Positions 14,211 through 64,000 of a DNA stretch of 64,000 nucleotides are shown here, piece after piece. Each line of letters starts with the position of its first letter. Within the stretch, counting starts at the first letter, position 1. The position numbers were made by a program, and so were the translations under genes. Origin of the DNA: Euglena gracilis (lineage: Eukaryota); contig CP154954.1 of assembly GCA_039621445.1 (NCBI GenBank), forward strand, positions 48,339,847 to 48,403,846, in the 5' to 3' direction. Under the pieces are notes generated by a model. The model searched no databases and was not told the DNA's origin. It worked only from the letters and a program-made list of their open reading frames with translations.

Positions 14211-17200
14211 TCAATTCATCGTTGCCGAGGCACCGGATGGCACACACTGTGAGCAGAAAGGGCAGCCCGGGCAGCTGAGAACGACGACGTAGATATTCCC
14301 GTATGAATCCCCGAACGCCATCTTGGCCGTCAGGCCGCAGGAGAGGCAATACACGGGGGCCTTGGTCGGCGCCATGGAATCACTTATTGATGGAGGGCGC
14401 GTTTCCCAAGCCCAAACCCACCCACCCGCTCCTTTCTTAAACACCCACCCACGCATGACCCAGGGGGTCAACCCACCCACCCACCATCCACCTAAAACCA
14501 CCTGCCCATTGTGCACCCCCCAGCCCCGTGGGCTGGGGGGCAACCCACCCACCCACACAAATCTCCGGAATCCACCTGTGTGACCCCTTCCATCAGGGGC
14601 AGGCCACACAAGTGTTAAATGAGTCCATGGTCTGGAACGAGACCACCTCCTCCCCCGTTTCCGGGTGGAAGATGTACACCGCCCGGTCGTTGCACACCGC
14701 CACAATGTAGCTGTGTGTGGGGGAGGGTGGCAGGGAGGGGGGACTTGCGCCACATTTGCAGGACGGATACAAACCCCTTCCTCAATCTGAACCCTCCCCG
14801 GTGTGCTGTTTGGGTGAATGAGTTGGGTGAATGGGTCGGATATTGGGTGAATGAGTTGTTTGGACGCCTTATCCGCAGGGTTGCTATTGTTGACCTTACT
14901 CGGGAAGCGTGCATTTGAATGGTTCAAAGCAATTCTTACGGTTAAATTTTCCTGCGTGCATATTTGCCGACCACCAACTGTTGTTATGCATTAAGTGTCC
15001 AGAGGGCAGAAAACATTTGCCTTTGAATTTTTTTCCCCAGAGACATCGGTCAGAAAATGATCATAATAATACCCACATCTTTGGGAAACGCTATTGCCAA
15101 AAGCTTCTGCATGTCCACAAACAACAGCATCAGCACCAAGCAGCAGTTGCAGCGTGTGCAGCAGTGGGGGGGGACTGCAGAGTGGGTGGCATGGCGAGGA
15201 CACATACAAGCCAAAGAGTCCCGGCGCGTAAGTGGAGAGGGTCCAGGCGAGCTTCCGCATGGAGCACTTCTTCCCCAGCGGCTGGACGCTGCGGGCAAGC
15301 AGGCCATCCAACCCAAGTCCCCCCCCCCCCTTCTGGTGACTGAATGTGTGGGAGAGGTCTGAGGGCACCGCGGGGGGGGGGGGGGGGCACAAGCCCACAC
15401 AGGTACACATACAGATCTGATGCAGTTCTGAGGCACCAGGCCTGCATGAGGCCAGCCAGGCCACGCGCAGGCCTGGCCTCCTGGCGTGGCCAGGGGGAAA
15501 GCACAGGCGTGTGGTGAAAGGTGTGCACGAGCGCCCTCGGACCGTCTGCAGGGGTCCAAATGAATGGAGACGGGACGGCGACGTTGGAGCCTCGCGCTCG
15601 GGCATCCCGCTTTTCTTTCCGCCAAGAAAAGGAAAAAGTCTGCTGCTTCCCTGTTTGCTGTCAGCTAAAATAAAATCCTCCCCCCAATGAGACCCCCCTG
15701 CCCATTTTCAGCAAAAAATCCAAATGGTGGAAAGATCAAAAATAGACCCCCTCAAAAATTATGAAGCCGCCCCAAAGGGGTTTTTTTTTGACATTTTCAT
15801 TCTCCATTTTTCGCTCGTGCCAAATTGGCACCTTCTGGGACAGTTTGTGTGCATTGCTGAATATCCTGCTCTTTGGGCATATATTTTGGACCCTCCAGCG
15901 AGAAAGTTTTTTCGGTTGAAACTTTCAGCAAAAAAAAAAATAGAAAATAACAACACCAAAGTGCACACCTGGGGTCTTATATATTTGGAAGAGGGTTGTC
16001 AATAACCCCCGGGGAAGCGGTCGGTTAAATTACGACGCCATCAGGCGTCTGTGATGGTTGGGCCACTGTCGGCCACTTCTGCAATAACCCACCCCCAATT
16101 AGGGGTGGGTTATGACTTCAAAAAAAAAACCAGTCAATCACCCCTGGCCTGGGGGAGGGGGCACACAAATGGCATGGCCTTACCCCAACGGAGACACCGG
16201 GGGATGGACACCTGTTGACCTCGAACATGCGAGTGCAGAGCCCGGTCTCCACGTCCCACACGTGCACGATGCTCTCGTCGTTGGACACCACGCTGCGGCC
16301 GTCTTGAGAATACGTGCAGGCGAGCACGATGCCCCGGTGGCCCCGTAGCACCCGCCTGCCGGGGGTGGGGGAGGAGCTGATGGCCGGGTACTCCGCCCGA
16401 AGGTCATGCACGTCTCTGACCGCAGAGTGGGTTTTGCATTCACGAGTATCAGAGAGGCTGTGAAGCACAATGTGATTTTGCCGAAGTCAAAAGTCAAGTC
16501 AAGTCCCATTTACAACTTGCCTGGAGAGGACCGGGAAGCGGGGGAGAGGGCAGGCAGGGGCATACAGGGTTTGGCCGGTGGTGGCGGACCAGATGCGAAG
16601 TGTTTTGTCCGCGGCGGCAGAGCAGATGCACTCGCCATCTGGTGCATATGACACCGCGACGATGATGCCTGCGGTGCACGCGACCCACATGGATGGGACC
16701 GACAAAGCATGTGTTTGAATGCCAGCCTTTTCCAAAATGTGACACGCTTTTCAATTTCAATCTTGTAAAGCTTTTGCTGATTTTCTGCTACAAAGAAGCT
16801 GTAAATCTTTTTAGAAACCCTTTGCCCTCTACAAAAAAAAGCAAACATCTCCTCCTTATGAATGTGGAATGATCACGACGAATCTTCCAAGGTTAACTTT
16901 TCCAGAAATTTTCTCTAAATCAAAGACCTGGTTTGGCAGCTGATAGTTTTCTCAAGTGTGCAATTACCACGTTGATCTGTTGTTGCTCCTTAACTCAGCC
17001 CACAACCAGACCCGCCATTGTCTCCTTTGTTTATGATAAGCCTCACCCTTGTGGCTCACCATGAAGAAACAAAATCACCCACCATAACCAACCCGGTGTC
17101 CCCTTCTAACTGCACGCAAGGCCGCATTCATTCCACCAAAGATTCCAAGTGGGTGAGAGTTTCAAACCCGAACTCTGCTGGGAGAATTTTGAGGTCACAA

Positions 17201-20200
17201 AATTCAATCTTCAAATTTTGAAATGATGGGAAACCGATGGAAGTGGGCCAGTGGCCTGACATCGCCCAGTGGCCTGACATTAAGTTTGTGAACACCGGCA
17301 GCTCGGGTGAACCATGTCATCGCCATTGCCCAGGTTCAGACCCCCCCAGGGGGGACAGACAAAACGAACAAAACAGCATTTTTATTGCATACACATTCAC
17401 TTGGACCAGCACACAAACCTTCATGCTCAGTGTATGCCAGCACCTCACGCCGCTTACGGATGTCCCATTTGCGACAGATTTTGTCCTGACAGCCTGCAAA
17501 AGGGAGGCGGGCGACGTCGTCTGAAATGCACACCAACACGTACGTACGTTCGCAACGATATGCCCTCAGGATGGCCAGGCTGCCACGGTCCAGAAACAAC
17601 AGGGAGAGGGAGAGCCGGCGGGCTTGTTGTACAGCGGTGGGGGGCCAGAGCGGAGGCGGAGACCTGAGACAACGTACTTCCCGTCGCGGGAGAAACAGCA
17701 GCACAGCACCACCTTCTCGTGGTCGAAGACGGAGACCTGCTGGCCGATGACGGCGTCCCACAGGATCATGGTGTTGTCCCGGGAGGTGGTGGCCAGGAAC
17801 TTGGAGTCCAGCGAGAAGCAGGCGCTGATGACCGTGTCCTGGAGGGCACAGAAAGAAGCGCAGTGGTACAAAGAAGGGGCTGGGCCGCTCGCTCTGCGGT
17901 CTTTCTGCTCGCTATTGCACGGTCAGCTTGGTCGGCAGTGCTGGCCCTGGGCCAGTCGGACCTTGTCAACTATGGCAACGCAGCTGGCTTCCAGGGGGGG
18001 GGGGGGAGCCAATCCCAATGTTTTCCAAATCGACGCTTCGCAATTCCCTCATGGAGTCAATGGCAAAACCTTGGCGGACAGATGCAACACGCATTGCATG
18101 TCCTAAATTGCAAGGAAGGGGCTACACCTCGTGGCCAAAGAAGGACAGGACCTCCCGGCCGGTGTAGATGTCGTACATCACGATGGCTGTGTCCTCGTGG
18201 GCGCACGACACATAATGGTTTTCGCTCGGGGTCAGCGTGGTACACTTCACCCGGCTGGGGGCGGCACCACACCTCGGGGTGAGACGATCACACCTCCCTC
18301 TGGAGCATTCCGATCCAAACAGCATCATCATCGGATTCTTCACTCCTGAAGGAAACACAAAATCCTCACAACAAACAGAAATGGTGGGGACAAACAACCT
18401 CGAAGCAAAGACTGAAGAACTTGACAGAGAAACCCCAAAGACAGGATGCCATCCACTTTGCATGCCAATCTCGGCACCATGCTCTCGTGGTGGGCAACAT
18501 TGGGTGCGTTGTGTGTTTAAGTGGTGTGTGTGTGTCTGTGTGTGTGGCATGTGGATGATAATGTTGTGAGCGCCCGCGTGCTCCTCGACATGCAAATACA
18601 TAACCACACACACCGCCACCACAGAGGTGGCCATCCCCCCTTCGGCCCCTTTCGCCCCATTGCGGGGGGTGGTGCCGGGCGGCGTGGCCCAGCAGCGTAT
18701 ACTGGTCGTAGTGGCGGATGCGGCGCTCCTCGAGGCGGCGGATGTGCAGGAGCTCGTCCAGCCGCGACACGGACCGCCCCGGCGCCGCCGCCGCCTGCAC
18801 GATGGCGTCGTCCAACACCGACTCCATGGCGATGCAGAAGTCCCCGAACTGGAACACCGGCAGGGCCCGGCCTCGCCCCTCGGCGCATGTGCCACTGCGG
18901 TTTGGGGCAGGGATGGTGGTACCACGCCACGCCACGCCACGCCACGCCACGCCACGCCAGACCACATCACACCACACCACGGCACGACACACGGTACCAC
19001 ACCACACCGCGCCGCGCCACACCGCTCCACGCCACGCCACGCCACGCCACGCCACGCCACGCCACGCCACGCCACGCCACGCCACGCCAGACCACATCAC
19101 ACCACGCCACGGCACGGCACACGGTACCACACCACGCCACGCCACGCAACACCGCGCCACGCCACGCCACGCCACGCCACGCCACATCACACCACAACAC
19201 ACCACACACCTTGGGGGATGGAGAGGTGGCGATATAAACAGTTACGTGCCACACACGAGCCAACTAGTGCACGCGATGCAACGCAATATTACTTTGTCCA
19301 GGGTGATTGGTGTTGTCACGTTGCAAAGTGATCAACAGATGCACCCTGACTTTAAAAAACCAGAATTGAATAGATGTGAAAAGCACAAAGCCTCCGGATA
19401 TGACACAGGCAGGGCCCTGCCCATGCCCCCCTCTTCCTTCGCCTCCACCTTTTTGGTTGGCTTGCGAGTCTTCTGGAACGCCGGCTTGGCCAGCTTCTTG
19501 GGCTTCTCTTTCGGCACCGACACCACGAAGTCCGCCGCGCCACCGCGCCGGCCACGGACCCCCCAAACGAGTTCCGTCTTCCGGGTTTTGCCGAGAGGAG
19601 CGGTTGGACCCCCTCCCAGCAATGGATAGCATGAACAAAAATCCATCCACCTCACCCCAAAAAACCAATCATCAATATACACACACACATATATACACAT
19701 ATATGCATATTGATATATATATTTATATATACACATTTACACACTTATGGACACTGCGCGAGACTTTTTAGACCGAGAAAATTGAAAAAAAAGGACCCTG
19801 CATTTGGCGAATGAAGGGAAAATCAACCCCTGGGCGTACGCACTGGATCCCAATTGACAAACAAAGGAATCGGAACCCCTCCCAGGGGGATGGCTAAGCT
19901 GTGCGCCAGTTTTCAAGCATCGGATCTCTCAAAGTTGGGGGGGGGGGCATTAGAACGGCTGAGGTTGTTCCACAAAACCCCTCGCCGTGACCCAAAACAG
20001 CCCCCTTTGCCACGCAGATGCACAGCCCGCCCCCGAGGCACAGCAGCGGCCCCCATACTGGAAGAGCTCGCCCAGCACCACCTGAAGCTCCCCCGACGTC
20101 TCCCCCTCCTCCGACTGGCCCGCCTCGCTCTCCCTCTCCTCCGCGGTGAAATTTAGGGCCGGCCACATCCAGCGGTCGGGCGATATCACTGCCCATGGGT

Positions 20201-20261
20201 TCCTCGCCCGAAAAAGAGAGCCCTCGGTCAGCAGGTGTGATTCAGCGGTGTCAAGCGACAT
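14211..20261 (-). CDS. WD40-repeat protein
   Basis: Exons about 20261-20064, about 19611-19423, 18855-18681, 18256-18128, 17838-17664, 17493-17419, 16668-16566, 16355-16212, 15288-15208, 14710-14633, 14367-14211 join in frame. Repeats include LLGHASRVKCTTL..., [94 protein letters not shown]; C-terminal AFGDSYGNIYVV. Start and first junction less certain. Confidence 0.88.
14373..14629. mobile_element. CATGG-terminated MITE acting as nonconventional intron 14368-14632 in the WD40 gene
   Basis: TIRs CATGGAATCACTTA / TAAATGAGTCCATG; N3/N5 excision gives EEVVSFQ-TKAPVYC; same family as 42512-42789 and 51621-51900. Confidence 0.75.
18257..18680 (-). other. Nonconventional intron (WD40 gene)
   Basis: 5' GCC-CGGCACCAC ... 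GTGGTGCCG-CCCCC 3'; no GT donor; join gives the WD-type GHA-SRVKC. Confidence 0.8.
18856..19422 (-). other. Probable nonconventional intron containing a (CCACG)n microsatellite (18921-19210)
   Basis: 5' GGG-CAGGGCCC ... GGGCCCTG-CCGGT 3'; join EEGGM-FQFGDFC. An in-frame GT-AG alternative also exists. Confidence 0.6.
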
Positions 20262-22276
20262 TGCGATGTGCAGTAATCCCCTCGGTCGACACATTGGACA
20301 CAGCAGACGCACCGCTGACACGACGGTGGTGTAAAGCAAGGTAGGTGTCATTCGAAGGGCAAAAAATAAACAGCAGCAAGGGTGTCACTGAGCCATTTAA
20401 CCATTTAAAGCCAACCCAGGGTACCGCTTAACGTCGGGCGGCTGGTCGAAATTGACCAATGGGGTTGACCAGATCCTAGGCTGAAAGAGGTTGTTGGCTA
20501 GCCCCCCCCCCGTTCCCCTTTGTCTGGAGCTCAAACAGCGTAACTCGCACTAATTTTCCTTTGTCAGTGTGCGCATTTGTGCAAATGGACAGTTTTGACA
20601 TTTTTCACAAAAATGACAATACCTGACTCACAAAACCCAAACATTTAATCAGGATGTGATGTGGTGCCCCAGGACGTAGAGATGAAAGCAGGGATCAGAT
20701 AGGTGTCGCCACAGCTTACGGGGTGCACAATACCCAGCCAGAAACTTCACGTGTGTGCAACTTCACGGCCATGCCATTTAGGCGATTCGGCATTGCTACA
20801 GTCTGAAAATCCTTAAGTGGGCTGAAATTGCTGTGTTTAGGGAGACATATGTGATGCAGCACCCTGACATGGTTTATTTGACCTTCTCAGACATACCACA
20901 CAACATCAGCACAACACCTGCACACGCTGCTCTTCTCCTAACTTTTACTCGCAGTTCTCAGTTTAACTTTACTCGCAGTTCTCACTGTGGTTTTTATGTA
21001 TTTTTGGTAAAATATTCACTTTGGGGAGGTCAGCCCTGGGGGTTTCACAGCTCGGCGACGGGTTTTGGAGAGTCAAGGGCACCATAAATGTACACTGAAA
21101 CCAGGTGCCACCGCTGTGAAAATGTGAACATCAGCAAATGGAGGGATGGCATGTTGCAAAGCAGCTCAAACACACCGGACCCTACCGTGCCACTGCTGGA
21201 CAAGGCCATAGCATTGCTTACTGACCGCCGGGCGGAAGGGGGGGGTCACTTTTCACTTCCAAAAAACCAGTCAGTCACTTGGCAAAAACCAGTCACCCAC
21301 TTCCTAACCTCCCGGGGGGGGGGGTCACCATGGCAACAATGGTGTGACCCCCTAAAACAAAAAATGCGCACACCGACAGAAAAATACGTTAGCACAATGC
21401 TTGATTGGAGCAATACCCTGTACGGAAATTCAAGCAGGGGGAAAAAATGTCAAATGTGGATAAATTTGCTTCGAAAGAAGCCCAATTTCCGTAAGATTTT
21501 GGAGGTTTAAACACTCTTTTGTGCAATTGTGCAAACAACTTTTTGTTTTTGTTGCGCGATTGCGCAAGTGACACAGTTAATTTATCCTCACTGGGACCAT
21601 TTCCTGCGTGATTCTTTGGCTTATTCGAAATGGATTCCTGATAAGATGCCATCTGCCATGTTCCCCTGAAACTAAACAGAGAAAAACGGAACCTCCAAAG
21701 CGAAAGTGCGGGAATGTGAAATGTGGAAATAAACATAAATGAGCTGAGAATGGAAAAATTGACAACGAATAGCACTTCCTGCGATGTGGAAGTTTTCATT
21801 TTGACCAAACTTGACAGAAAGCCATTGCATGTGCACTTTTGTATATTTTGAAAAAAGTGCCAGATTTGGGTTGGGTTGGGCTGGGCGGGGGGGGGGGGCG
21901 ACCGTCAGCTGCACGGGACCAGTGCACTGGCCGCGGGGCCCCTCTCCGCGGGGAGGGCATGGCTCTGGGCGTGGGACTGGACAACCGCCTCCTTACTGAT
22001 CCACCCACATCCCATGAAAAGGCAGCCGCGGGCGACAGGCTGCGAGACGGGAGGGGGATGGGGACAGGCGAGGGGGTTGGATGGATGGGGGGAGGGGTTC
22101 GAGGCTTGGGGGGGGGGGGCGTTGCTGCGTCGCGAGAAAGCCGCCACCCTAAGCAGACCAAAGCAGGCATGCACCCCCTGGGGGGGCACAAAGCTCACAC
22201 AACAAACGCGCGCGGCTCTCGGGGACAGCAGCGATACGCGCCGGGAACGGCTCGACCCGGCTCCTTTTTGCCACCC

Positions 22277-22389
22277 CAGGGTTGTATGGGAAGCTCCGCA
22301 GACATGAGGTGGGTGGTGGGGGGTCCCCCCCCCCTAGGGGGGTAAGGTGGTAGGGGGGGGTCCCCCCCTCGGAGATTCATACAACCCTG
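22277..22389. mobile_element. 113-bp TIR element, possible nonconventional intron in an unresolved gene (about 21900-28500)
   Basis: Perfect 12-bp TIRs CAGGGTTGTATG / CATACAACCCTG; no TSD left; flanks look exon-like but strand and frame are undetermined. Confidence 0.6.
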
Positions 22390-23267
22390 ACGCGGAGAGA
22401 GTTACCGCCTTTGGCACCCTTCCCACCTGTCCACTGCCAGTGGGGTTGAGTTCCGATGAACCCTCTGAAGAAGGAATTATTGACATGTATCGCCCAACCC
22501 ATCCTTCTGGCGGTGGGGATGCGCTTCTGTTTGGACCCCATTTTGCTGATATCCATTGATTTCCTTTAGAAACCCCATGAAACTGGGGGGCGCATTTGTA
22601 GTGGACCGCCGCCTTTGGCAGCCGAGGATTCGCTGTTATTTGGACCGCTGTAGCGACCCCGCACTTCTATTGGGGGGGGCGAGTTTAGGGCTTCCACCGA
22701 GCCCCCCCCCCCTGCCTGAGGGGGGTTAAGGGGACCCAACCTCATGAGAAGTGTTTCAAAATTCGATGCCCTGTCTATTGAGGTGAAATTATCCAGCATG
22801 GCTTCTGGATAATTTTGGTCGGTTTGGGGGGGGGGTCGGTTTTGGGTTCCAGCTCGGAGTGCCCAGGCAAACCTCCCATGTTTGGACCCCGGCGCCTTCG
22901 GTTCTGAAGGAGGGGGTGGGGCAATCAAAAGCGCTAAACCAGATCTACAAACAAAACCAGATCTACTGGGGTCGAAAATGCCTTCACCTCGCCCGAGCTG
23001 AGACCTAAACAGGTGCCACAAAATCGAAGAACAAAAATTCCCCCAAACAACAGCCAATTATGCAAAAAAGTCAATTGACCCAACGTTTGCCTTGGCCAGC
23101 CCATTTCCGACCCATTTCGCCAATTTTGGCCCATTTCTGCACCCCCGAAAGCGAAAAATTTGCTACCATTCAGCTGCCCTTCGGGCGGCTGCAAAATAAT
23201 CAGAACTCGTCGGGGGAGAGGAGTATAGGGCTGGAAAATGGCAGCTGGCTGGAAAACGGTCCATGAC

Positions 23268-27100: not shown

Positions 27101-27571
27101 GGGGGGGGGGTTCCCATTGCGATCCCCGGGATAGCTATTCCGATGTGCCGGCCGGAAATAGTGCCCACGGGTGTGAAAAACATGCGGATATCAAAAAAAC
27201 TAGCCAGATATCGACAGTATTGGAGGGGTGGAAGACGGCCCCAAATGTCAGTACAGCCTGGTCCCCTTAGGGGGGCACCCACACCGAAACAGTGCGCGGT
27301 CCAGGTGACTGACGGTTGGCCAAATGGTGAAGCGCCGGGCCCAAAACTTTGCCTCTCAAAATCGGCCGAACTGTTCCATTTTTGGGTAATTTTTGGGCAA
27401 GGAACTGGCAAAAAGTGCAGTGAACAATATGGTGGAAGACTCTGGAAGGAAAATTTTGACCTTTGAGGGTAGGGGGCGCCAGATACCCTGGGGTTGGACT
27501 AAACCCCGTTGGCAGGTGAGGGGTCCGGACCTCCGGGGGCCAAAGACCAAACCGCGAGCCCATGAAGAAAC

Positions 27572-29746: not shown

Positions 29747-29787
<41 letters not shown>

Positions 29788-41700: not shown

Positions 41701-42129
41701 TCTGAACCGCCAAGGAACGAGGGGCGCATAGTCTTTGCCCTGGGCGGGTAGCCCCCAAACAGGTGTTTTCTTCGGACCCCCCCCCCCAAAAGACGTCATT
41801 AGAGTCGAGGTTTTTTTCGGTGAGGGAAAACGTTGAGAGAAGTACCGTCCCATAGAAAGAAAGAAAGAAAGAGTTCACTCCAGAGCGTCGCTCAACCACC
41901 CCACTCAGAGACGGCTGAAAAGGTTGGGCTGACACGAAAAAAGGCCGCTGGCTGACCCCCCCCCTGGCTGGCACTGGACGCCCCCGGGTCCAAATCCCGC
42001 CCGGCACCAAAGGGGCGGGGAGAGAGGGGACACCCAGAGGCAGTCGCCCAGCCGGTACTGCGCCAGCCCCGCCGCGCTGTACGCCTCGTCCTCGACCGCC
42101 ATGAAGGGGGCCGAGCCCCGGTCACTCAT
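29231..42129 (-). CDS. cAMP-dependent protein kinase regulatory-subunit-like protein with two divergent cNMP-binding domains
   Basis: Exons 42129-42034, 41678-41508, 39146-39035, 37046-36994, 36887-36837, 36553-36493, 36294-36182, 35327-35286, 35193-35146, 33513-33433, 33034-32945, then less certain exons near 30635-30485, 29890-29820 and 29248-29231. Translation includes ARRTEVIAQ...FPKSANDTFALIHALRDNYLFSEMDSLELHLMIDALQEVTFEAGTLIFEEG...WFYVIMEGQCESHVNGTFVRVLGPGQALG and a second domain ...AAYLVLQGFATV...LIGENEFL. Confidence 0.8.
31470..31791. mobile_element. MITE-like repeat (AAAAAACCAGTCAGTCACT family)
   Basis: TIRs CCATACCATTGCT / AGCAATGGTATGG; central hairpin GGCGCC-TTC-GGCGCC at 31636-31650; no TSD recognisable. 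Confidence 0.75.
35194..35285 (-). other. 92-nt nonconventional intron (PKA-R-like gene)
   Basis: 5' CCC-CAGGGCCC ... GGGCCCTG-CTCCCC 3' (N3/N6); join LVEAF-DRVRLQPEDHLL. Confidence 0.8.
36888..36993 (-). other. 106-nt nonconventional intron (PKA-R-like gene)
   Basis: 5' GCG-CCGGCC ... GGCCGG-GCACG 3'; join restores the cNMP-type strand FYVIMEGQC-ESHVNG. Confidence 0.75.
38113..38566. mobile_element. 454-bp hAT-like MITE (intronic)
   Basis: TIRs CAGGCTTTTGCTTAAGG / CCTTAAGCAAATGCCTG; perfect 8-bp TSD ACCCCCAC; internal CTAGCTAG motifs. Confidence 0.9.
40341..40704. mobile_element. TA-flanked MITE (Tc1/mariner-type TSD), copy 1
   Basis: TA|CCTCCCCCCCCCCTATGTCCAACGACC ... GGTCGTTGGACATGGGGGGGGG|TA; internal TGTCCTCTGACCGGGG repeats. 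Confidence 0.8.
40782..41502. mobile_element. 721-bp hAT-like element inserted at a GT splice donor
   Basis: TIRs CAGGCACCTATGG / CCGTAGGTGCCTG; perfect 8-bp TSD CATACGTG (40774-40781, 41503-41510); subterminal (GCCCTGGTCG)n and internal (CATCGCCCAG)n repeats. Confidence 0.92.
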
Positions 42130-42511
42130 CGTGGGGGGCGGGCCAATGGCCGGGAGGGAGCCCGGGCCACGGGCTGGTACCTGCGGGGAGCCGGGGGTCA
42201 CGGATCGATGCAAGGGCAAGTGGGGGCAACTCCCCCGTCCAGGAGGGGGGTGGGGGCTATGCCCCCCCCCCCCCACATACAGTGGCGAGGCCGGGGTGAC
42301 CGATTTTTGGCTGAGCGCGAAGTGCGGGGTGGAAAACTTTGCCCCCCGCCCGCCCCAAAAATCGGCCTCAATGCCGTTTTTGTTTTGAGGCAAGTAATTG
42401 CAAAAATCAAAACAGAAAATATATGACCTTTTGGAGGAGGTCCTGGGTACCCCCCGGTGTCTGGTCCAGACCTCCCTTTGGTTCCAAACTGTGGTAGGCA
42501 CCCACTTCCCA

Positions 42512-42789
42512 CATAGATTCACTTAGTGGGGGAGGACATTTCTCCCAGGCCCAAAACCCACCCACCCACTTTTTTCAAAAACCCACCCACACACAAACCC
42601 CCAGGGGAGGGGTCAGACACCCACCCACGCACCCACCCAAAATCATGCCAAAACCACCAAAAACACTGAAAAAATTATCTGGCTGGGCAAAAACCTGACC
42701 CATAACGCACCCGGGGGGGTGAGGCGCACTCTTGAAAACGCACCCACCCCCCGCGGGGAGGGGTCGCACAGGTGTTAAGTGAATATACG
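42512..42789. mobile_element. Intergenic copy of the CATGG-terminated MITE family
   Basis: CATAGATTCACTTA ... TAAGTGAATATACG with an ACCCACCCACCC-rich core, as in 14373-14629 and 51621-51900. Confidence 0.7.
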
Positions 42790-42844
42790 GTCTTGAAATA
42801 AGGCCTGGGTTTATTTTAATCATTGATACAGTGATGCAGCCTCA

Positions 42845-43201
42845 CCTCCCCCCCCTTGTCCAATGACCGCTAAATATCGCTACTGACCGGGGGGGTCGTT
42901 AGATAAGACCGGGGTCAAAAAAAATTTTTCTCCTGCTTCGCTTCAAGGCGAAAAAAAGTTTCCTTTGCCTGACATGGCCACAACTCTCCGCTTCATGATG
43001 AAAAAAGGGAGAAACATGCAGCAATCAACAAGGCACCAACACATGGGAGAACTTGTTGATCAGGTTCAAAATCAGCCATGAAAGTTATTTTAAAAAAAAA
43101 GGCTGGAGGTAAGAACGTGAATCACCTGGAAAAAGATCGCTACTGACCAGGGGAGTGGTCGTTGGACAAGGCCGGTCGTTGGACAATGCGGGGGGGGGGG
43201 G
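42845..43201. mobile_element. TA-type MITE, diverged copy 2
   Basis: CCTCCCCCCCCTTGTCCAATGACC ... GGTCGTTGGACAATGCGGGGG..G|TA. Confidence 0.65.
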
Positions 43202-44199: not shown

Positions 44200-46614
44200 C
44201 CCCCATCGCCAGGAGGGGCCCCAGCGGGGTTGATCTGGCGGATGATGCTCCACAGGGTGTGGGTGCCGAGGGCGATGTCGAACGTCTCGTCGCTGGTGGG
44301 CAGCGACCCGCCGTCCCAGCACAGGTCCAGCTGCTGCAGCGTCGGCCCAGGCCGGCCCCAGGCTGGCCAGGGGGCGATGAGGGGGGAATCCTCCTTAAAG
44401 CGCCGGGCCAACCCTTTTTACCCCAAAAATGACCCAAAACCGCCATGGGCACTGTCTGGGCAACGTTTTGTCAGACTGCCCAAAATATCGGCACAAAGTG
44501 ACGGAAAACTGAATCTTTGAGGCAGTCCCCCCCCCCCCGGCCGGAAACCACCCAGCGGGGGGAAGGAGGCCTTGCGAAAGGGGCTTCAGACGGTCGAAAC
44601 CACCCCACCCTCCTTCGTGCCCAACCCTCTGGGGGGATGCAAGGTCCTTGTGGCCGAGTTGTGCAGAAAGTGGTCTTTTCCAAAGTGCATCCAACAGGAA
44701 CGTTGTTCTGCGTTTGTGGGGCAATGAGTCCAGCACTGTGCGCGGTACATTTAAGAACAAAATGCCTGCCCAGCCTCTTCCCCACGACCACGTCGTCTGC
44801 TGTTCTTTAACACCTCGCCAAACCGTTCGTTTGGCGGTTCCTTTCCTCGGAAAGAAGCCCGTTTCCCACTCAAAACCGAGGCAAAAGATTCGCCGCAGCC
44901 CCGGCCCCGGGGGCCGGCCCGGCGGGAGAGAGCCCACGATGTTGAGGAGCTCGGAGGTGGTGCTGAGGATGGGCCCGATGACGAGGTGCTTGATGTGCGT
45001 GGCCTCCAGCGCCACCGCCTGGCACACCGCGGAGTCTGCGTCCTTCAGCCCCCGCCAGGCGGTGGCGAGGCGGCACCGCAGCCACACACAAAAGGCGGCC
45101 CAAACCTGACCCAAGTTGCTCAGTGGGTCTTCCCAAGAATTACTGGGGGGGTGGGGGTCCCTGCTGGTCTGAGTACGCAGCCACAACAACAAGCAGTCAC
45201 GTGGAACATGATGACTTACGTGGACATGAACACAACACATCGCACACACGGACACCACACCACACCACACCACACCACACCACACCACACCACACCACAC
45301 CACACCACACCACACCACACCACACCACACCACACCACACCACACCACACCACACCACACCACACCACACCACACCACACCACACCACACCACACCACAC
45401 CACACCACATACAACACAAACAAACACAACACAAACATGCACGCACGCGCACACAACATGCACACACTCAACACACACTCATCACACAACTAGAGGCACC
45501 GTCACACTGCTGCTCATCAGATATCCTCATCAGATAGGGGTGAAACGCGGTCTGGGGCTGATGGACACAGCCTGACCCAAGCACTGCCAGTTTGTGTAGA
45601 TTTGCCGGCAGAGGGACACCTTGCTTGAATATTTTGTGCAGTTAGCCAAATAAAATGGTTCACCAGCCTACTGGATAGAAGCCTCAATCAGCACACCATA
45701 AACCGAAGCCAACGTCATGGCAAAACATCACACACAAATGAAATATTTTGAGAAGAAAAAAAAAGAAAAAAAGAAGCTGCAGAAAAGCGCAACGGCTCCC
45801 AGGGCGCACAGAAAATGCAGTGGCTCTCAGGGCGGAAACTTGTGCTGGAGGTCCTTGAGCACGGCACTGGTCAGGGTGTGGATCGGCCCGTGGCTGGCGT
45901 GCTTCCACACGTGGAGGTGCAGCCACTCCAGCGAGGGGTAGGGGTCGGTGGGGGGCACCACGGAGAAGAGGGTGTCGTCCACCTCAGGACGCAGGCCGGA
46001 CCTGCAGGTCGCCGGCCAGCATGCAGCCACGCACATGCATGCGCACATGCCCGCGTGACAGAGAAACCCACATGTGTGCACGCACGCACACACCCACCCA
46101 CCCACACAAACCGCAAACACACACAAATAACAACACACACCAAACGCAACAGAGATTCGAGTGCACAAAGAAAATGAGCGCGTTCACACGACGTGGTTGC
46201 AGACATGTTGGGTCACGGCCTGGAAAGTGCCTCGGCCAAGGAAGTACAGCTCCAGGCGGCGCAGGCCAAAACAAGTGCCAAGCAGGGTGTGGACGAACTT
46301 GTTGGTCACCTCCCCGAAGAGGACACACGCCTGCAGCCGCGAGAAGCGAGCGATGTTGGAAGCCAGGATGGTTGCTCCCAGCGGGCGACCCAAAGAGGTG
46401 TTGCGAACCAACTCTCACAAACACCTTTCACCACGGGCAAACACAACCAAACACACCCAACACATCACACACAGAGAGAGAAGGACAAAGATGCACACAC
46501 AGGCACACGCACACATGGACACGTGCACACAGATGAGCAATACGCATAAGCACCACATCCATCTCATAAACAACGCACGTGCACAGAACACAGGCACACA
46601 CACAGACACACACA

Positions 46615-46654
<40 letters not shown>

Positions 46655-49600
46655 CAAAGAGAGATACAGACAGACAGAGAGAGAAAGAAGACACACATGG
46701 GCGCGCATGCACACTGTGGTTGGACAGGTCGCTGGACAGGGAGGGGAAAGGATACTGCAGCAGGAGGAATGGTTCTTGTAGGCTGCGGTAGCTGTCCCAG
46801 TGCTCCTCCCAGCCCACACTCTCGATGCTGATGCTTTCCAGCGACGGTGCCGGAAGGCCAACTCGGTAGCTTTTGATGGTGACATGAGCAGCATGAGCAA
46901 TGTGAGCATGCTGGACATATGAAAATAACATCAGATCCACTCGAATCCACTGGACCCAATTTTGAAAATATTTTTTGCTTGCATCACATTGAATCAACGG
47001 AAAAAGGTTTGAAGACAACCTTACGTAGGGCTGTTCGGGAAGGTCTGGGGGTCTGGACCCACTCCACCAAGGCAATTCACAACGGAAATTCCTTTGGTTC
47101 CGACCAAGGGCTTTTTTAAGACTGGGGGGGGAGGGCCCCCGCCCACCCACCCACCAGGGTCCCCTGAAAATGGCCAAAAATCGCGAAAAATGCTAAGAAA
47201 TAGCACCTTTCTCAAAAATTTTCGGTGCCAAAAAGTATATCCCACACCCCCCCCCCTACCCCCCTGGGGGGACCCCCCCGGGGGGTGGGGGGGCTCGGCC
47301 GGACCCATCCACACTACCCCCCTCCCCCCGGAGGTCCAAGGCTTAAAAAAAAAAAACCCTGGTTCCAACATACAAAAAAAAGCTGTCGGATTCAGCAGTA
47401 ATTGGCACAGGCAGGAAAAAAATGACAGTGACTTGCTGAGGGGGAAAAAAGCGAAGGCACCAAGGACACACATGCTTCCCCCACCCCAGGGGAGGGGGAA
47501 GTTGGCCCCAATAAATTCGAAAATAAATTTTCGTGAATCCGTAAGTCCGTAAATTTTCCACTTTTGGGAGATCAGTCCATTCCCCTGAGAGGTTGGCCTC
47601 GGGCCTGTCCTCGCCAACCCAGCCTGACAGGGGGTTGGCCTGCCCCTCTGTACTCGCCAACTTGGCTGAAGCCAACTTCCACCCTTCCCTGGGTGGGGGG
47701 GGGGGTACAGAGAGCCTTAACACCCCAGAGACAGCCTCCCGGGCGGCAGGCGGGTCAGGAGCACGTCCAGCGCCGCGTCAGGCAGGCGGGGCTCGGAGTG
47801 CTGGAGGAACGCGGCGGTGTACGGCCGCAGCCGCAGGCACTGCAGCCGGGGGACGCTGTGGGCGATCCGCTCGCAGTCCGCCCGGGAGAAGGCGCACGGC
47901 GCGGAGATCTCCAGCCGCTCCAGCTGGGCCCATGGCCGGGGTGATAATATAGTTTGTGATACATATGATAATAATTCATGATACGCGTCTCTCTCTCTGT
48001 GTGTAATAAAATGCTATGTGCACACACACACATAGTATATTGTTATTGTAGTATATAGTATATTACACATAGTATATTGTATATTGTTATTAATATATAA
48101 TATATATTAAATTGTAACACCATATATGGTATGTAGAGCGTGGTATAATGCATACAGACAAACACTCTGTGGATATGCACAAATGCGCAGACAGATCCTC
48201 TGCAGGAAGGTGTGTTCTGTCAAGCTTGGCTTTTACCCTCCCCCCCCTATGTCCAATGACCGGTAACCTCTGTCCTCTGACCGGGGGGGTGGTCGTTGGA
48301 CATAGGGTAGTGACCAAAAAGGTGTCCTCTGACCGGGGGGGTGGTCGTTGGACATGGGGTCAAAAGAAAATTGGTGGGTACCCGGGTCCCTACCCACCCA
48401 AAAAATGCCCAAATTTTCCCTTCCGGCGCATCGCGCCGAAAATCTTGGGCAATTTTGACAAATTTTTGTCCAAAAAGTGTCAAAAATGGCATTTTGGCCA
48501 AAATTTGGGCAAAATTTTTCGTCCCGGCACTTCACGCCGGGACCAAAAATTTGGTCAAACCTCCGAAAAGGTGTCCTCTGACCGGGGGGGTGGTCATTGG
48601 ACATAGGGGGGTCGTTGGACATAGGGGGGGGGTATGAAGTTTTTGTATTTGCATCCGCTGTGCTTTGCATGTGAGAAGAAGAAGTTTGCCTCCTCATCGA
48701 CCTCACCCCAGAATTGATGGTCCACAGACAGGCCATGTTTGGGGTGACTGGTGGATGATGTGCAATATGTCGCGGAACAGAGGGAGGCGCTCCGATCTTT
48801 GGCAAACATCAGCAAAACCAAGCAGGTCTGCTGACATTATCTTGAGCAGTTTTATACGGCCCAAACCAGGGGTCACCGGCACTGCCACGGGAGGGAAAAG
48901 CAGCCGGCAACCTCCTGGGCACAACACTCCCCAACACACCCCCAAGACAGCACGCCGGAGCAGACAGGGGAGCCTCGGCGGGAGCACCGCACCGGAGGGG
49001 ATGGCGTGGGGGTGCTCGGAGACGCACAGCTCCCGCAGCTGCGGGAAGGCGCAGCACGCGAACCGCGACCGCGCGGCGGGGGCGACGCAGCCGACGTTTT
49101 CGATGTGCAGCACCCGGAGGGCGGGGGCGTCCCGGCCCTGTCTCTCCAAGGTCCATGGCCCGAGGACCCCCACACAAATATGGGATTATGAGGAGGGGGC
49201 AGGTGACCTCTCAACTGAAATGGACTTCGGGCGTTCGATGGCGCCAGGATGCTTCAGTCGCTCATCTCCCGGCAGAAAGGGAGCGTCTAGGGAGGGCAGC
49301 TGAGAAACTTGAGTTGAAATCTGTGGCATGCAAAAGGGTTGGTCAGGAATGCTCCCCGCTCATCGGCATGGAAACCAGCAGCTGGAAGGCTGTTCGATTG
49401 GTGACACATCACAAGGAGGGCAGTGTGGGGGGGGACACCTGAGGTTGACCCCCAGGCGACTCCAGTTCCCTTCTCATGTCGCGGAAATGGGAGGGGGGGG
49501 GCCGAGGGTCGGGGCGGGCGGCGTGCGAGAGGGGCGGCAGCGCCTCCGGCTTGGCGGGCACCGGCGGCCGCGTGAAGCGCACGCCGCCGAGGCGCAGCTC

Positions 49601-52457
49601 CGCCAGGCGGGGGCAGCCCGCCAGGAGGGGGCCGAGCAGCGCGGCGTCCAGCGGCACCTCGCAGCCCCCGCCGCTCGGCGCCGGGTCCGGCCGGTCCGTC
49701 TTCCACAGCCGCTCGGGGGCGGGGCGTCCCGGGGTCCGCCGTCCTCCCATGACACGCAGGAGGGCAGGGGGGGGGGGCTGATCGCACCCGACACATCAAA
49801 TCTCCAGCAGCAGCAAACAGAGGGGTCTCTAAAGGCCCCGTACAACCCCGTTAACCGTGGTTTTTGATGAGGCGGCCTTTCGCATAAACGACACAAACTT
49901 TCCCCAAGAGTAAACTAACAGGGGGAAAAGGACTGTTTGGGGGTGGTGGTGGAGAGTGCCAAGGGGGGACGTGCTTTTGGGGGGGTCTGTTTTTGGACTC
50001 TGGAAATTTGCAGCCAAAAAAAGTTAGCAGCATTCTTCCCTATCATTTGAAAAAAGGCAATATTTGACCGTGTAAAATATGTATAAAAAAAGCAAAAAAA
50101 AAACGATCACGTTTGGGGCAAATACACGTCAATTTTCCCCAAAAAAAATCCCAATGGGGATTTAAATAACTTCAGCAATTTTGATTTGATTTGGGACACC
50201 ACAGCCCATTTGGACGAACGAAGACGCCAAACGTCAGCCAGGTGCTGTGGAGGAGAGCTCCGGGCGAGGTGCTGGCAGTACTTCACCACCTCACGAAGGA
50301 CGCTGTAGTGCAGGGACCCCGTGAACTCGATGACCCGCAGGCCGGGGGACTTCAACAGCAGCAGCCCCAGCACGCCGGCCTGCTTCTCCTCCCAGCGGTC
50401 CCCGGCGATGGACCCCGCCAGCGGGGGGCGGAGCGAGCACAGGGGAAAGTGGCGGGTCCGCACACGAGTCAAACGGTGTGCGAATGCGGGGGTGGGCGGC
50501 AAATGCGCACACCCCGACTCATCCCCAGGACTGGCTTCATTTGGCTTGGGCACCAACCCCCACCCTCGTTAAACTGCGACCAGACAGGTCGGCAAGTGGC
50601 TCCGACACTTTCCTGGGCGGGGGGACCCCCCGTTCGCCAGGGACGCCGGGTTCCCCGAGAATGGGGGTGCCCTGGAACAGAGTGCGGGGTGGTGGCCTGG
50701 CCCCCCCGCTGGCCAGCTTCGTCACCGCCATCACCTGCTGGGCGAGGCCGACGAGGAACACCATCGTGCGGGGCGTGGGCGACCGGAACCGCAGGTCGGT
50801 GGGAGGTGGGCCCCGTTTGGGCTCCGGGGGGCATCCCTACCTCCCCCTCCCCCATCCAGAACACTGACTCCTGACAGCAGATACTGCGTTCCTCGCCCCA
50901 TTGCCCCATACCGCGCGTGTTGTCAATTGTCATGGAAGATCATTGGTTTTTTTGACTTTGGTTGGCCGTCCCTGACAGCTCCCTGGGCATGCCCCAGGGG
51001 AGGGGTTTTTGGTTTTGTGGCCAAACCTGGGAAACTGTCCGCGCCGTCCGACCTGCCACGGTTTCCAAAAACCATTCACTCACCTTTTCCGGAAAACCAG
51101 CCAGTCGCTAGCCCCCGGAGGTGTACACTCTGGAATCCAAGGGGAAATTGACGACAGGTTTAAAGAAACTGGCCGAGAAAAAATTCCAAAGGCGGGCCAT
51201 TTTGGTGGTTTATCCAACCCCTGCACCCACAGGGCGGGGGTGGGTTACCATATTTGGGGATTGCTTATATTTGGGTGTGGGGTGGGCAAAAAATCGGCCA
51301 AAAGGCTGCCTGCATTTGTGGATAGCTTGTTTTAAAGGTTACTTATATATGCGGGGGGGGGGGTGTTGCACACCAATTTGGCCTGTTCCCCTTTAATGTT
51401 GGCACGCCATATGCCACTCCAAACAACCAGTGAGTTACCCCCTCCCCCCCGGGGGGGGAGGTCAGCCAGAGACTAAGTGATTGGCTTAGTGTTACGGTCG
51501 GGGAGTGGGGGCGCCTCGGCAAGGGCAGCGGTGCAGTGGAGGAGGCGGTGCGTCGCTCGGCGCCACTCGGAGGACAGGAGGCACAGCACCTGCACAAAAG
51601 GCAGCCCCAAGTACCTGAACCATGGATTCACTGAAGGAGCTCCATGGGGGGAGGGCAATTCCCCCTGGGCCAAAACCTACCCACCCACTTGTGTGAAACA
51701 CACCCACGACGACCCCCCCCCACGCCACCCATCCAGAAACCCACCCAGAATTAGCTGAACCCCTCAAAAAAAACTGGAGATCCATTGCGAACCCCCCCAG
51801 GGTCCAACACCGCCACTGCGCCAACCCACCCACCTGCCCGCCCACCCACTTTCGAAAAACCCCCAGGGGAGGGGCCACACCCGCAGTCAATGAATCCATA
51901 CCCTGAACACCAGCTCCAGCAAGAAGTCTGGCGGAACAGGCCGCGGCACGGGGGAAAGGTTTCCGAGAAAGGGTGGGCGAGCACAAAGGCCCACATGTGA
52001 CTGCAGGTGTCATGAGCATGGCGGGGCAGGGGATGGGCAACCCAGATGACTGGAACAAAGGGGAAGAATGAAGTGTCTCTCAAAGGGACCCCCAGAGTTT
52101 TGCAAGGCACAGTTTTTGCCGGGGCGGCCCCATGCGTGAAAAACAAAAAAAACCGTAATATTTTCTGAACATTTTTGGGGGGCATTTGGACTTGCCAAGG
52201 GTGCAGTCCTTTAGAGTTTTAGGTGGAAAGCAAGACCTTGCACAACACAGCACAGCCTGCGGAGCTGCGAACACAACACAGAGGACTGTCCTGTGCTCTC
52301 CCCCCAAACACACACACACACACACACACACAATCCCTTTGAAGGCAGCCACCAAGGACAGAGGCCAGGGCAGAGGCTGGGGCCCGGGCGGGGGGTCGAG
52401 GCTGCAGTGGGGCGAAGCGGTGGCCTCGCGCCGCGCCGCCTTGCGATGCGGCTTCAT
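44200..52457 (-). CDS. F-box / leucine-rich-repeat protein (FBXL-like)
   Basis: F-box-like PDFLLELVFR-YLGLPFVQVLCLLSSEWRRAT followed by LRR-type units: SPGLRVIEF, CQHLERLW, CPRLAELRL, ALRVLHI, FPQLRELCV, SPQLERLEI, VPRLQCLRL, LPSLESISI, CFGLRRLEL, YPSLEWLHL, LPTLQQLDL. All resolved junctions are nonconventional. First junction and 3' end unresolved. Confidence 0.82.
45253..45408. repeat. (CACAC)n microsatellite
   Basis: Directly visible. Confidence 0.95.
47105..47361. mobile_element. 257-bp hAT-like MITE nested in nonconventional intron 46846-47744
   Basis: Ends CAAGGGCTTTTTTAAG / CTTAAAA..AACCCTG; TSD GTTCCGAC / GTTCCAAC; same family as 61231-61513. Confidence 0.82.
48236..48632. mobile_element. 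TA-flanked MITE, copy 3, nested in nonconventional intron 47926-48740
   Basis: TA|CCCTCCCCCCCCTATGTCCAATGACC ... GGTCGTTGGACATAGGGGGGGGG|TA. Confidence 0.85.
51621..51900. mobile_element. 280-bp CATGG-family MITE forming nonconventional intron 51616-51903 inside the F-box motif
   Basis: TIRs CATGGATTCACTGA / TCAATGAATCCATA; TSD ACCTGAAC / CCCTGAAC (7 of 8). N3/N5 removal gives VFR-YLG, whereas the nearby GT/AG pair is out of frame. Confidence 0.85.

Positions 52458-53734: not shown

Positions 53735-64000
<10,266 letters not shown>

What the first reader, a model, noticed from the sequence alone, without database searches (positions are those of the whole stretch)
14368..51903. A CATGG-terminated family supplied introns to two unrelated genes and has a free intergenic copy
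14373-14629 (WD40 gene, TSD eroded), 51621-51900 (F-box gene, TSD 7 of 8) and 42512-42789 (intergenic) share CAT(G/A)GA(A/T)TCACT ends, similar length (257-280 bp) and an ACCCACCCACCC core. Homologous introns at non-homologous positions are the hallmark of introner elements. The stem starts CAT/TAT rather than CAG.
Basis: partly seen in the sequence, partly recalled or inferred. Interest (0 to 1): 0.75.

Follow-up and report, generated by a model that had tools for sequence, protein, structure and literature searches.

The report
Transposon-like intron family in Euglena
Three related 260-280 bp inverted-repeat elements sit in this Euglena gracilis DNA, and at least one is cut out of a gene's messenger RNA as an unusual non-GT-AG intron, which supports the old idea that such introns began as small transposons.

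Summary
Copies at 14373-14629, 42512-42789 and 51621-51900 are a real family. They share 12-15 nt terminal inverted repeats and interior similarity well above shuffles. The window is Euglena gracilis: twelve exons on the minus strand rebuild the protein EG_transcript_2331 at 457 of 458 residues.

Copy A is intron 11 of that WD40 gene. It is 265 nt (14632..14368) and is absent from the transcript-derived protein. None of its 6 equivalent border positions is GT/GC-AG. It fits the euglenid nonconventional-intron layout N3-stem...stem-N5|purine, but the stem starts CAT...ATG, not the published CAG...CTG.

Copy C carries a 7/8 target-site duplication. Removing the element plus 8 bp restores an F-box-like frame. 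No transcript, Pfam or structure hit confirms this, because my two capped searches used the wrong frame.

Copy B has no coding context and decayed ends.

Six CAG...CTG elements elsewhere in the window have 7-8/8 eight-bp duplications, against none in 30 shuffles. The best reading is a MITE-like family removed as nonconventional introns. It gives family-level support to a published hypothesis. Genome-wide copy number is unchecked.

The parts
14373..14629 (-). Copy A of the element (257 bp). It lies inside intron 11 of the WD40 gene.
14368..14632 (-). Nonconventional intron 11 (265 nt = element + 8). On the minus strand it reads GAC-CATGGA...TCCATG-GCGCC|G.
   Evidence: 0 residue mismatches to P0001, and 6 slidable positions of which none is GT/GC-AG. 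Only this position gives N3...N5|purine. In the fold a terminal stem closes the intron.
14633..14710 (-). WD40 exon 11 (..YIVAVCNDRAVYIFHPETGEEVVSFQ).
14271..14367 (-). WD40 exon 12 (TKAPVYCLSCGLTAKMAFGDSYGNIYVVVLS).
14271..22015 (-). WD40-repeat gene with 12 exons and 11 introns. Introns 5-10 are GT-AG; introns 1-4 and 11 are nonconventional.
   Evidence: top hit eukprot:EG_transcript_2331; 457 of 458 residues; Pfam WD40.
42512..42789 (.). Copy B (278 bp). It has decayed ends, no target-site duplication (2/8) and no detected coding context.
   Evidence. The fold z-score is only -0.90.
51621..51900 (-). Copy C (280 bp).
51616..51903 (-). Putative nonconventional intron (288 nt = element + 8). 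On the minus strand it reads GGG-TATGGA...TCCATG-GTTCA|G.
   Evidence: 8 slidable positions, none GT/GC-AG; a terminal stem closes the intron. Splicing is inferred, not shown.
51613..51620 (.). Left copy of the 8-bp target-site duplication of C (ACCTGAAC).
   Evidence: 7/8.
51901..51908 (.). Right copy of the 8-bp target-site duplication of C (CCCTGAAC).
   Evidence: 7/8.
51904..51963 (-). Upstream flank of C, read as ..PVPPDFLLELVFR.
   Evidence: GC3 is 15/19 in this frame. There is no Pfam hit.
51497..51615 (-). Downstream flank of C, read as (R)YLGLPFVQVLCLLSSEWRRATHRLL..
   Evidence: GC3 is 33/39 in this frame. There is no F-box hit.

Best explanation
A, B and C are old, diverged copies of a small non-autonomous DNA transposon (MITE-like) of Euglena gracilis. 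It has terminal inverted repeats of about (C)CATGGAWTCAYTT and an 8-bp target-site duplication.

Where a copy landed in a coding exon (A, and probably C), the pre-mRNA is repaired by the euglenid nonconventional-intron pathway. The two inverted repeats pair into a terminal stem. The cuts fall 3 nt before the stem's first base and 5 nt after its last base. The piece removed is therefore the element plus 8 nt, that is, the element plus one copy of the duplication, and the pre-insertion reading frame returns.

What is shown:
- The family relationship, the inverted repeats, and the 7/8 duplication of C.
- A is absent from the transcript-derived protein, has no GT/GC-AG option, and fits the N3/N5|purine layout.

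What is inferred:
- Transposition as the copying mechanism.
- Splicing of C.
- That the 3+5 spacing of the splicing code mirrors the 8-bp duplication.
For: Organism and gene: the top hit for a WD40 exon is eukprot:EG_transcript_2331. Twelve exact exon anchors map to the window. The rebuilt coding sequence equals that protein at 457 of 458 residues.

Intron A: 265 nt, 0 mismatches, 6 slidable positions of which none is GT/GC-AG. The position 14632..14368 reads N3(GAC)-CAT..ATG-N5(GCGCC)|G. The relatives P0002 and P0004 read straight through the same junction (SFHSRAPVY, SFYSKAPVY).

Other introns of the same gene follow the published code: intron 3 is N3-CAG..CTG-N5|G and intron 4 is N3-CGG..CCG-N5|A (code from PMC12501133).

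The family is real. C has a 7/8 duplication of 8 bp. In the minimum-free-energy folds a terminal stem closes all three copies.

The window holds 6 CAG-start inverted-repeat pairs with a 7-8/8 eight-bp duplication, against 0 in 30 shuffles. A fixed 8-bp duplication is therefore a local rule.

Published support: Milanowski 2016 reports 8-nt direct repeats at a recently gained E. agilis nonconventional intron (PMC4770533, passages). A MITE origin has been proposed (PMC3935182 and PMC11282704, passages).

A's duplication is eroded and the copies are only 62-63% identical, yet the exons are intact. An old insertion must therefore be compatible with gene function.
Against: - There are only three copies, 62-63% identical. 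A-C similarity is weak (E 0.006; interior z 3.2).
- The duplication is absent at B (2/8) and weak at A (4/8).
- No transposase domain was found in any of the 541 ORFs of 70 aa or more.
- CAT..ATG (A) and TAT..ATG (C) fall outside the genetically defined CDG/CH'G signature. In the tested intron, single changes in CAG or CTG, including CAG to TAG, blocked splicing (PMC12501133), so C in particular might be poorly spliced.
- C has no transcript support. Pfam sees no F-box in either half. GC3 in the proposed frame (48/58) is only moderately above that of one other frame (43/58).
- P0001 differs from the window at residue 363, so it may come from another allele or strain.
- Fold z-scores are modest (-2.14, -2.26, -0.90).
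Confidence: 0.72

Rival explanations
1. The copies spread through RNA, not DNA. Nonconventional introns leave the transcript as circles. A circle could reverse-splice into another RNA and be copied back into the genome, giving homologous introns at new sites without a transposase.
For: Circular excision of these introns is reported (PMC11282704 passages citing Guminska 2018 and 2021). No transposase was found in the window. A and B share the 3 nt before the stem on the minus strand (GAC), and 7 of 8 right-flank bases on the + strand (GTCTGGAA / GTCTTGAA), as if flank bases travelled with the element.
Against: Reverse splicing should not create a target-site duplication, yet C has 7/8. Six other inverted-repeat elements in the window have 7-8/8 duplications of exactly 8 bp, against 0 in 30 shuffles. 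Copy B lies where no gene was detected. The 5 nt after the stem differ among all three copies.
Confidence: 0.1
2. Copy C is not an intron. It is a gene-breaking or non-genic insertion, and the F-box-like reading is a chance match in G+C-rich DNA.
For: There is no Pfam, PDB or Atlas support for either half in the right frame, and none for 33 short ORFs nearby. Long ORFs are common here: the median best ORF spanning a random 288-nt excision is 165 codons. The 5' stem base is T, and CAG to TAG was defective in the published assay.
Against: Excising the element plus 8 bp joins ..PPDFLLELVFR to YLGLPFVQVLCLLSSEWRR.., which has the spacing of an F-box as I recall its consensus. GC3 is 15/19 and 33/39 in that frame on the two sides. 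The T pairs with G as a wobble in the sense RNA, so the 14-position stem has no mismatch.
Confidence: 0.3
3. Copy A is not spliced at this locus. The transcript behind P0001 comes from an allele or paralogue that lacks the insertion.
For: P0001 differs from the window at 1 of 458 residues (T363I). No nucleotide-level cDNA was available.
Against: The insertion is old: the duplication is eroded to 4/8, the inverted repeats match at 12/16, and the copies are 62-63% identical. Yet all 12 exons are intact and 457/458 identical. The intron obeys the N3/N5|purine layout, as do introns 3 and 4 of the same gene.
Confidence: 0.05
4. The likeness among the three copies is only shared low-complexity sequence (CCCACCC and GGGGAGGGG runs) plus a chance inverted repeat.
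For: The sequences are strongly biased, with 16-18 runs of three or more G on the sense strand. The terminal 12-mer alone is at chance level.
Against: Interior-only scores exceed all 200 dinucleotide shuffles for A-B and B-C, and exceed all 383-392 random window pieces for all three pairs. The matching blocks are collinear at both ends. Lengths and inverted repeats agree.
Confidence: 0.03

Closest known systems
Euglenid nonconventional introns (E. gracilis, E. agilis): code 5'-N3-CDG...CH'G-N5-6|R, terminal stem, direct repeats at the borders (PMC12501133, PMC11170887, PMC3935182, PMC4770533)
   Same: No GT/GC-AG borders. A terminal stem starts at +4 and ends at -6. The spacers are 3 nt and 5 nt, and the next exon starts with a purine. 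The borders are slidable because of direct repeats. CA/TG sit at +4,+5 / -7,-6. These introns share a gene with GT-AG introns.
   Different: The third stem pair is T:A, giving CAT..ATG (TAT..ATG in C), instead of the G:C of CAG..CTG. This falls outside the genetically defined signature. In addition, these introns have recognisable relatives elsewhere in the window, which the papers I read do not report.
Introner elements of Amoebophrya (non-canonical introns with inverted and direct repeats; PMC7789003)
   Same: Families of repeated non-GT-AG introns with 8-20 nt terminal inverted repeats, direct repeats across the borders and a hairpin joining the ends. They are MITE-like and no transposase has been found (passages).
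   Different: The lineage is different (a dinoflagellate relative). The direct repeats reported there are 3-5 nt, against 8 bp here, and there is no CAG/CTG-type register.
Classic introners (Micromonas, Aureococcus, fungi, dinoflagellates and others; PMC9860276, PMC12130899: search listings and abstracts only)
   Same: Homologous introns at unrelated gene positions, transposon hallmarks and copies outside genes.
   Different: Classic introners are removed by the spliceosome at GT-AG sites built from the element and its duplication, and they occur in hundreds to thousands of near-identical copies. Here the borders are nonconventional, only three diverged copies were seen, and the copy number is unknown.
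hAT-type MITEs (8-bp target-site duplication, termini of the form YARNG; recalled, not from a call)
   Same: An 8-bp duplication (C 7/8; six CAGG-terminated elements in the window at 7-8/8). The termini start with CA.
   Different: CATGG has T at the third position. No hAT transposase or other transposase domain was found in the window. The superfamily is therefore not established.

Membership tests
Euglenid nonconventional intron | Removed from the mature transcript | tested here: met
   Copy A: the rebuilt coding sequence without 14368-14632 equals the transcript-derived P0001 at 457/458 residues, with 0 mismatches around the junction. Copy C: not tested, because the searches used the wrong frame.
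Euglenid nonconventional intron | No GT/GC-AG borders at any equivalent (slidable) position | tested here: met
   A: 0 of 6 positions. C: 0 of 8 positions.
Euglenid nonconventional intron | Terminal base pairing that brings the intron ends together | tested here: met
   A closing stem appears in the minimum-free-energy folds of A, B and C. In the sense RNA, 13, 13 and 14 of 14 positions pair when G.U is counted.
Euglenid nonconventional intron | Spacers of 3 nt (5') and 5-6 nt (3'), with a purine as the first base of the next exon | tested here: met
   A: GAC / GCGCC | G. C: GGG / GTTCA | G.
Euglenid nonconventional intron | C-D-G at +4..+6 paired with C-H'-G at -8..-6 (PMC12501133) | tested here: not met
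   A has CAT/ATG and C has TAT/ATG. The paper finds the signature in 61.2% of nonconventional introns, so the rest also lack it. The older CA/TG consensus (PMC3935182) is met by A.
Euglenid nonconventional intron | Excised as a circular RNA after conventional splicing | not testable with these tools
   This needs RT-PCR with outward-facing primers or RNA-seq.
Introner (transposon-derived intron family) | Sequence-similar introns at non-homologous positions in unrelated genes | tested here: inconclusive
   A is a confirmed intron. C is similar to B (E 4e-14) and weakly similar to A, and its intron status is only inferred.
Introner (transposon-derived intron family) | Many copies genome-wide, including recent ones | not testable with these tools
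   There are only 3 copies in 64 kb.
Introner (transposon-derived intron family) | Transposon hallmarks: terminal inverted repeats and a fixed-length target-site duplication | tested here: met
   Inverted repeats of 12-15 nt are present in all three copies. The duplication is 7/8 in C, 4/8 in A and 2/8 in B. The 8-bp rule is supported by six other elements, against 0 in 30 shuffles.
hAT MITE | 8-bp target-site duplication | tested here: met
   C is 7/8.
hAT MITE | Autonomous partner encoding a hAT transposase with matching inverted repeats | tested here: not met
   None in the window: Pfam on 541 ORFs of 70 aa or more found only WD40 and one spurious FAM27 match. The rest of the genome was not searchable.

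The most novel reading that the evidence does not exclude
Euglena's nonconventional introns are, in bulk, still-recognisable families of transposons with an 8-bp duplication. The 3+5-nt spacing of the nonconventional splicing code exists because it removes exactly one element plus one duplication. The pathway would then act as RNA-level 'precise excision' tuned to this transposon class, and possibly recruited from it. The CATGG family further shows that the stem's third pair can be T:A. On that view the machinery reads the outer C-A / T-G pairs plus stem geometry, not the CAG/CTG sequence itself.
Probability: 0.35. Interest if true: 0.85.

Novelty: new variant of a known kind. Interest (0 to 1): 0.62.

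Why it matters
The origin of euglenid nonconventional introns is still called unclear in the 2025 paper that defined their splicing code (PMC12501133, discussion). A MITE origin has been a hypothesis since 2013, based only on inverted and direct repeats at single introns.

A family with related copies inside and outside genes is the kind of evidence that established introners in other lineages. It turns the hypothesis into a genome-wide test: count the copies, measure the duplication length, and look for the autonomous partner.

Copy A also matters on its own. It is a naturally spliced intron whose stem starts CAT..ATG, which lies outside the genetically defined CDG/CH'G signature. It is therefore a ready test case for what the unknown excision machinery actually reads.

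In five searches of the held library I found no paper that reports families of Euglena nonconventional introns, or that links them to hAT-type or 8-bp-duplication transposons. Subscription journals and bioRxiv supplements were not searchable.

Tried and rejected
1. Wrong reading frame. I took ORF 51346-51627(-) and piece 51466-51618(-) for the downstream F-box exon. They are in another frame. As a result, five calls say nothing about the F-box gene: the search for homologous proteins (no hits), the search of protein representatives (4 hits, all repetitive unrelated proteins), the third protein, Atlas and PDB. The caps of the first two tools were then spent.

2. Right frame (P0022 51476-51619(-), P0023 51890-52009(-)). 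Pfam at E up to 10 gave no F-box, only a weak 2TM_P5A-ATPase match at E 0.087. The PDB search found nothing and the Atlas gave no usable hit. For 33 minus-strand ORFs of 30-69 aa in 48.5-53.5 kb, the only match was a weak Ac76 hit.

3. The first search, with 14630-14923(-), found nothing because most of that ORF is intron.

4. The length of the ORF spanning an excision does not discriminate. Random 288-nt excisions give a median best ORF of 165 codons, and the true frame at A is not among the top three.

5. Codon and GC3 tests give only modest support for C.

6. An unfiltered scan for inverted-repeat pairs was swamped by low-complexity DNA. It was replaced by a filtered scan.

7. Rfam and tRNA scans of the window found nothing.

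8. I considered GT-AG solutions for A and C by hand. They would delete conserved residues or shift the frame, and for A they are excluded by P0001.

9. I considered Amoebophrya and diplonemids as the source organism. They are rejected by the exact match to the E. gracilis transcript protein.

10. The supplement of PMC11170887 holds no intron sequences.

No genome-wide copy search was therefore possible.
Full report
**What is in the sequence**

- Sizes: A 14373-14629 (257 bp), B 42512-42789 (278 bp), C 51621-51900 (280 bp).
- All three lie in the same orientation on the + strand.
- Each ends in an inverted repeat: 15 nt at 87% complementarity in A, 12 nt at 92% in B, 13 nt at 92% in C.
- The terminal 12-mer by itself is not above chance: 10 matches against 9.64 expected. 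Five of those ten matches are the copies' own ends, arranged as inverted pairs.
- The interior is rich in ACCCACCCAC: 19 hits against 0.38 expected, with 12 of the 19 inside the three copies.

Similarity is not confined to the ends.

- blastn gives A-B 74% over 137 bp (E 5e-18), B-C 69% over 142 bp (E 4e-14) and A-C E 0.006.
- With 20 nt trimmed from each end, local alignment scores are 11.2, 8.9 and 3.2 standard deviations above 200 dinucleotide shuffles. None of 383-392 random pieces of the window reaches them.
- The copies are nevertheless old: only 62-63% of aligned columns are identical in the three-way alignment.
- A profile of the three finds no fourth clear copy in the window; the next best hit has E 0.0017.

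**Which organism and which genes**

ORFs near A carry WD40 repeats on the minus strand. A search with the largest of them returned eukprot:EG_transcript_2331 as the best hit. That identifier style is used in Euglena gracilis papers (search listing only).

Twelve segments of this 458-residue protein map exactly onto the minus strand from 22015 to 14274. A coding sequence rebuilt from the window equals the protein at 457 of 458 residues; the one difference is T for I at residue 363. The window is therefore E. gracilis nuclear DNA or a very close relative.

The gene has 11 introns.

- Six are GT-AG with C-rich tracts (introns 5-10).
- Five have no GT/GC-AG option (introns 1-4 and 11).
- Intron 3 reads N3-CAG...CTG-N5|G.
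- Intron 4 reads N3-CGG...CCG-N5|A.

These two forms are exactly those defined genetically for Euglena nonconventional introns, 5'-N3CDG-/-CH'GN5-6|R (PMC12501133; abstract, Results and Discussion read).

**Copy A is an intron**

Intron 11 is 265 nt, which is copy A plus 8 nt. The protein reads ..EEVVSFQTKAPVYCLS.. straight across it with no mismatch. Two relatives from other sources read SFHSRAPVY and SFYSKAPVY at the same place.

Six border positions give the same mRNA, and none starts GT or GC and ends AG.

The stem begins CAT...ATG rather than CAG...CTG. It keeps the outer C:G and A:T pairs, which are the CA/TG consensus of Milanowski 2014 (PMC3935182, passages). It replaces the third G:C pair by T:A. 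That puts it outside the CDG/CH'G signature, which the 2025 paper finds in 61.2% of nonconventional introns.

The minimum-free-energy fold closes the intron with this terminal stem. The z-score is a modest -2.14.

**Copy C is probably an intron**

C is flanked by ACCTGAAC and CCCTGAAC, a 7/8 match. On the minus strand the flanks read ..PVPPDFLLELVFR and YLGLPFVQVLCLLSSEWRRATHRLL...

Removing the element plus 8 nt (288 nt, 51903..51616) joins them in frame. The element itself has an in-frame stop after four codons. By eye, the joined peptide has the spacing of an F-box; the consensus is recalled and did not come from a call.

All eight equivalent borders are non-GT/GC-AG. The one with 3-nt and 5-nt spacers reads GGG-TATGGA...TCCATG-GTTCA|G.

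Support beyond that is thin.

- GC3 in that frame is 15/19 upstream and 33/39 downstream. It is 0.86 in the WD40 exons, but one other frame reaches 14/20 and 29/38.
- Pfam, the PDB and the ESM Atlas see nothing in either half, nor in 33 short ORFs nearby.
- I could not submit the joined peptide to any tool.
- My two capped homology searches for this gene used an ORF in the wrong frame. Whether a transcript spans this junction therefore stays unchecked.
- The first stem base is T. It pairs with G as a wobble in the sense RNA. In the published assay, however, CAG to TAG was defective.

**Copy B**

B has decayed ends, a 2/8 flanking match and a fold no better than shuffles (z -0.90). No Pfam domain or convincing frame lies beside it. 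'Intergenic' is therefore an absence of evidence for a gene, not a demonstration.

**The wider setting**

A filtered scan for inverted-repeat pairs used 10-nt arms, at most one mismatch and a separation of 40-3000 bp. It finds six CAG-starting pairs flanked by 7-8/8 eight-bp direct repeats:

- 1910-4439
- 6654-6768
- 11722-11996
- 38113-38566
- 40782-41502
- 61231-61513

Thirty dinucleotide shuffles gave none. All six begin CAGG, matching the CCAGG/CCTG consensus reported for E. gracilis nonconventional introns (PMC11170887, section read).

A further CAT...ATG element at 31474-31787 has a 7/8 duplication. It shares the subterminal AGGTGTTAAG with B's 3' end. The CAG-type pair 61231-61513 / about 47100-47365 shares a subterminal module with the CATGG family, GGGGGAGGG...CCCC...CCCACCCACCCAC. 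The CATGG family thus looks like one branch of a larger set of related small elements.

No transposase domain is present in any of the 541 ORFs of 70 aa or more.

**How it most likely works**

These are copies of a non-autonomous inverted-repeat transposon that makes an 8-bp target-site duplication. In an exon, the transcript is rescued by the nonconventional pathway.

- The inverted repeats form the terminal stem.
- The cuts fall 3 nt outside the stem on the 5' side and 5 nt outside it on the 3' side.
- 3 + 5 = 8, so the excised piece is the element plus one duplication, and the original coding sequence is restored exactly.

That equality is my inference. It is not stated in the passages I read. 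A review does call the border repeats TSD-like (PMC11282704), and Milanowski 2016 noted 8-nt repeats at a newly gained intron (PMC4770533).

According to that review's passages, these introns are removed after conventional splicing and appear as circles, and the machinery is unknown.

In the sense RNA, four of the six inverted-repeat mismatches across the three copies are G.U wobbles; in the antisense RNA none is. This hints at selection on the RNA stem, but with four transitions the chance probability is about 1 in 16.

**Rivals**

- RNA-mediated spread of excised circles is possible. It does not explain exact 8-bp duplications.
- C may be a non-spliced insertion.
- The WD40 transcript could in principle come from an allele without A. 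But A is old (eroded duplication) while all exons are intact.
- Shared low complexity is rejected by the controls.

**Comparison with what is known**

The thing works like a euglenid nonconventional intron. It meets every defining feature I could test except the CDG/CH'G trinucleotide.

It resembles the introner elements of Amoebophrya most closely among transposon-like intron families (PMC7789003, passages). It differs from classic spliceosomal introners in its borders and in its mechanism of removal.

hAT affinity (8-bp duplication, CA-starting termini) is a lead from memory. It is not established.

**Novelty**

A MITE origin for these introns is a published hypothesis. The introns themselves, their stems and their border repeats are known.

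In the held library I did not find a report of sequence families of Euglena nonconventional introns with copies outside genes, or a link to 8-bp-duplication transposons. Subscription journals and preprint supplements were not covered.

I rate this a new variant of a known kind. It is of moderate to good interest, limited by three old copies, an unverified copy C and an unknown genome-wide copy number.

Noticed in passing
window 1910-4439, 6654-6768, 11722-11996, 38113-38566, 40782-41502, 61231-61513: Six elements have CAGG...CCTG terminal inverted repeats and 7-8/8 eight-bp flanking duplications (four are exact: cacagcag, acccccac, catacgtg, attggggg). Thirty shuffles gave none. The termini match the E. 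gracilis nonconventional-intron consensus. Whether any of them lies in a gene was not determined.
   Followed up: partly
window 31474-31787; relatives near 21204-21350 and 13546-13830: A second CAT...ATG-terminated element (314 bp, duplication gttgcggc/gttgtggc, 7/8) shares the subterminal AGGTGTTAAG with the 3' end of copy B. The relative near 13.5 kb carries AATCACTTATT, as in copy A's 5' arm.
   Followed up: partly
window 61231-61513 and about 47100-47365: This CAG-type pair (about 70% identical) shares a subterminal module with the CATGG family, G-run/AGGG...CCCC...CCCACCCACCCAC. That suggests one larger superfamily with diverged termini.
   Followed up: partly
window 14271-22015 (minus strand): The WD40 gene mixes 6 GT-AG introns and 5 nonconventional introns. 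Intron 1 (1754 nt) has CAG..CTG arms but its spacers sum to 12, and intron 2 pairs CGC..GCG. Neither fits the published N3/N5-6 CDG/CH'G form.
   Followed up: partly
copies A, B, C (sense = minus strand): The transcript strand is G-rich, with 16-18 runs of three or more G per copy (GGGUGGGUGGGU repeats). The intron RNA could form G-quadruplexes. All three copies have the same orientation.
   Followed up: no
window 14630-14637 and 42790-42797: The right flanks of A and B are 7/8 identical (GTCTGGAA / GTCTTGAA), and C's is CCCTGAAC. This may be a target-site preference or a few extra element bases.
   Followed up: no
window 40668-42865: A 2.2-kb pair of CATTGGACA...TGTCCAATG arms (one mismatch in 10, flanks 5/8) encloses copy B. 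B may be nested in a larger CAT-terminated element. A repeat starting near 42845 recurs at 48237-48293.
   Followed up: no
window 2965-3375, 54450-56030, 18921-19209 with 45231-45507, 10617-10750 with 53920-54090 and 56844-57023: Several satellite or simple-repeat blocks are present, some palindromic and some shared between distant places. One lies inside WD40 intron 3.
   Followed up: no
window about 16240 (WD40 exon 9): There is one residue difference from EG_transcript_2331: T in the window, I in the transcript protein, at residue 363. This points to another allele, strain or paralogue as the source of the transcript.
   Followed up: no
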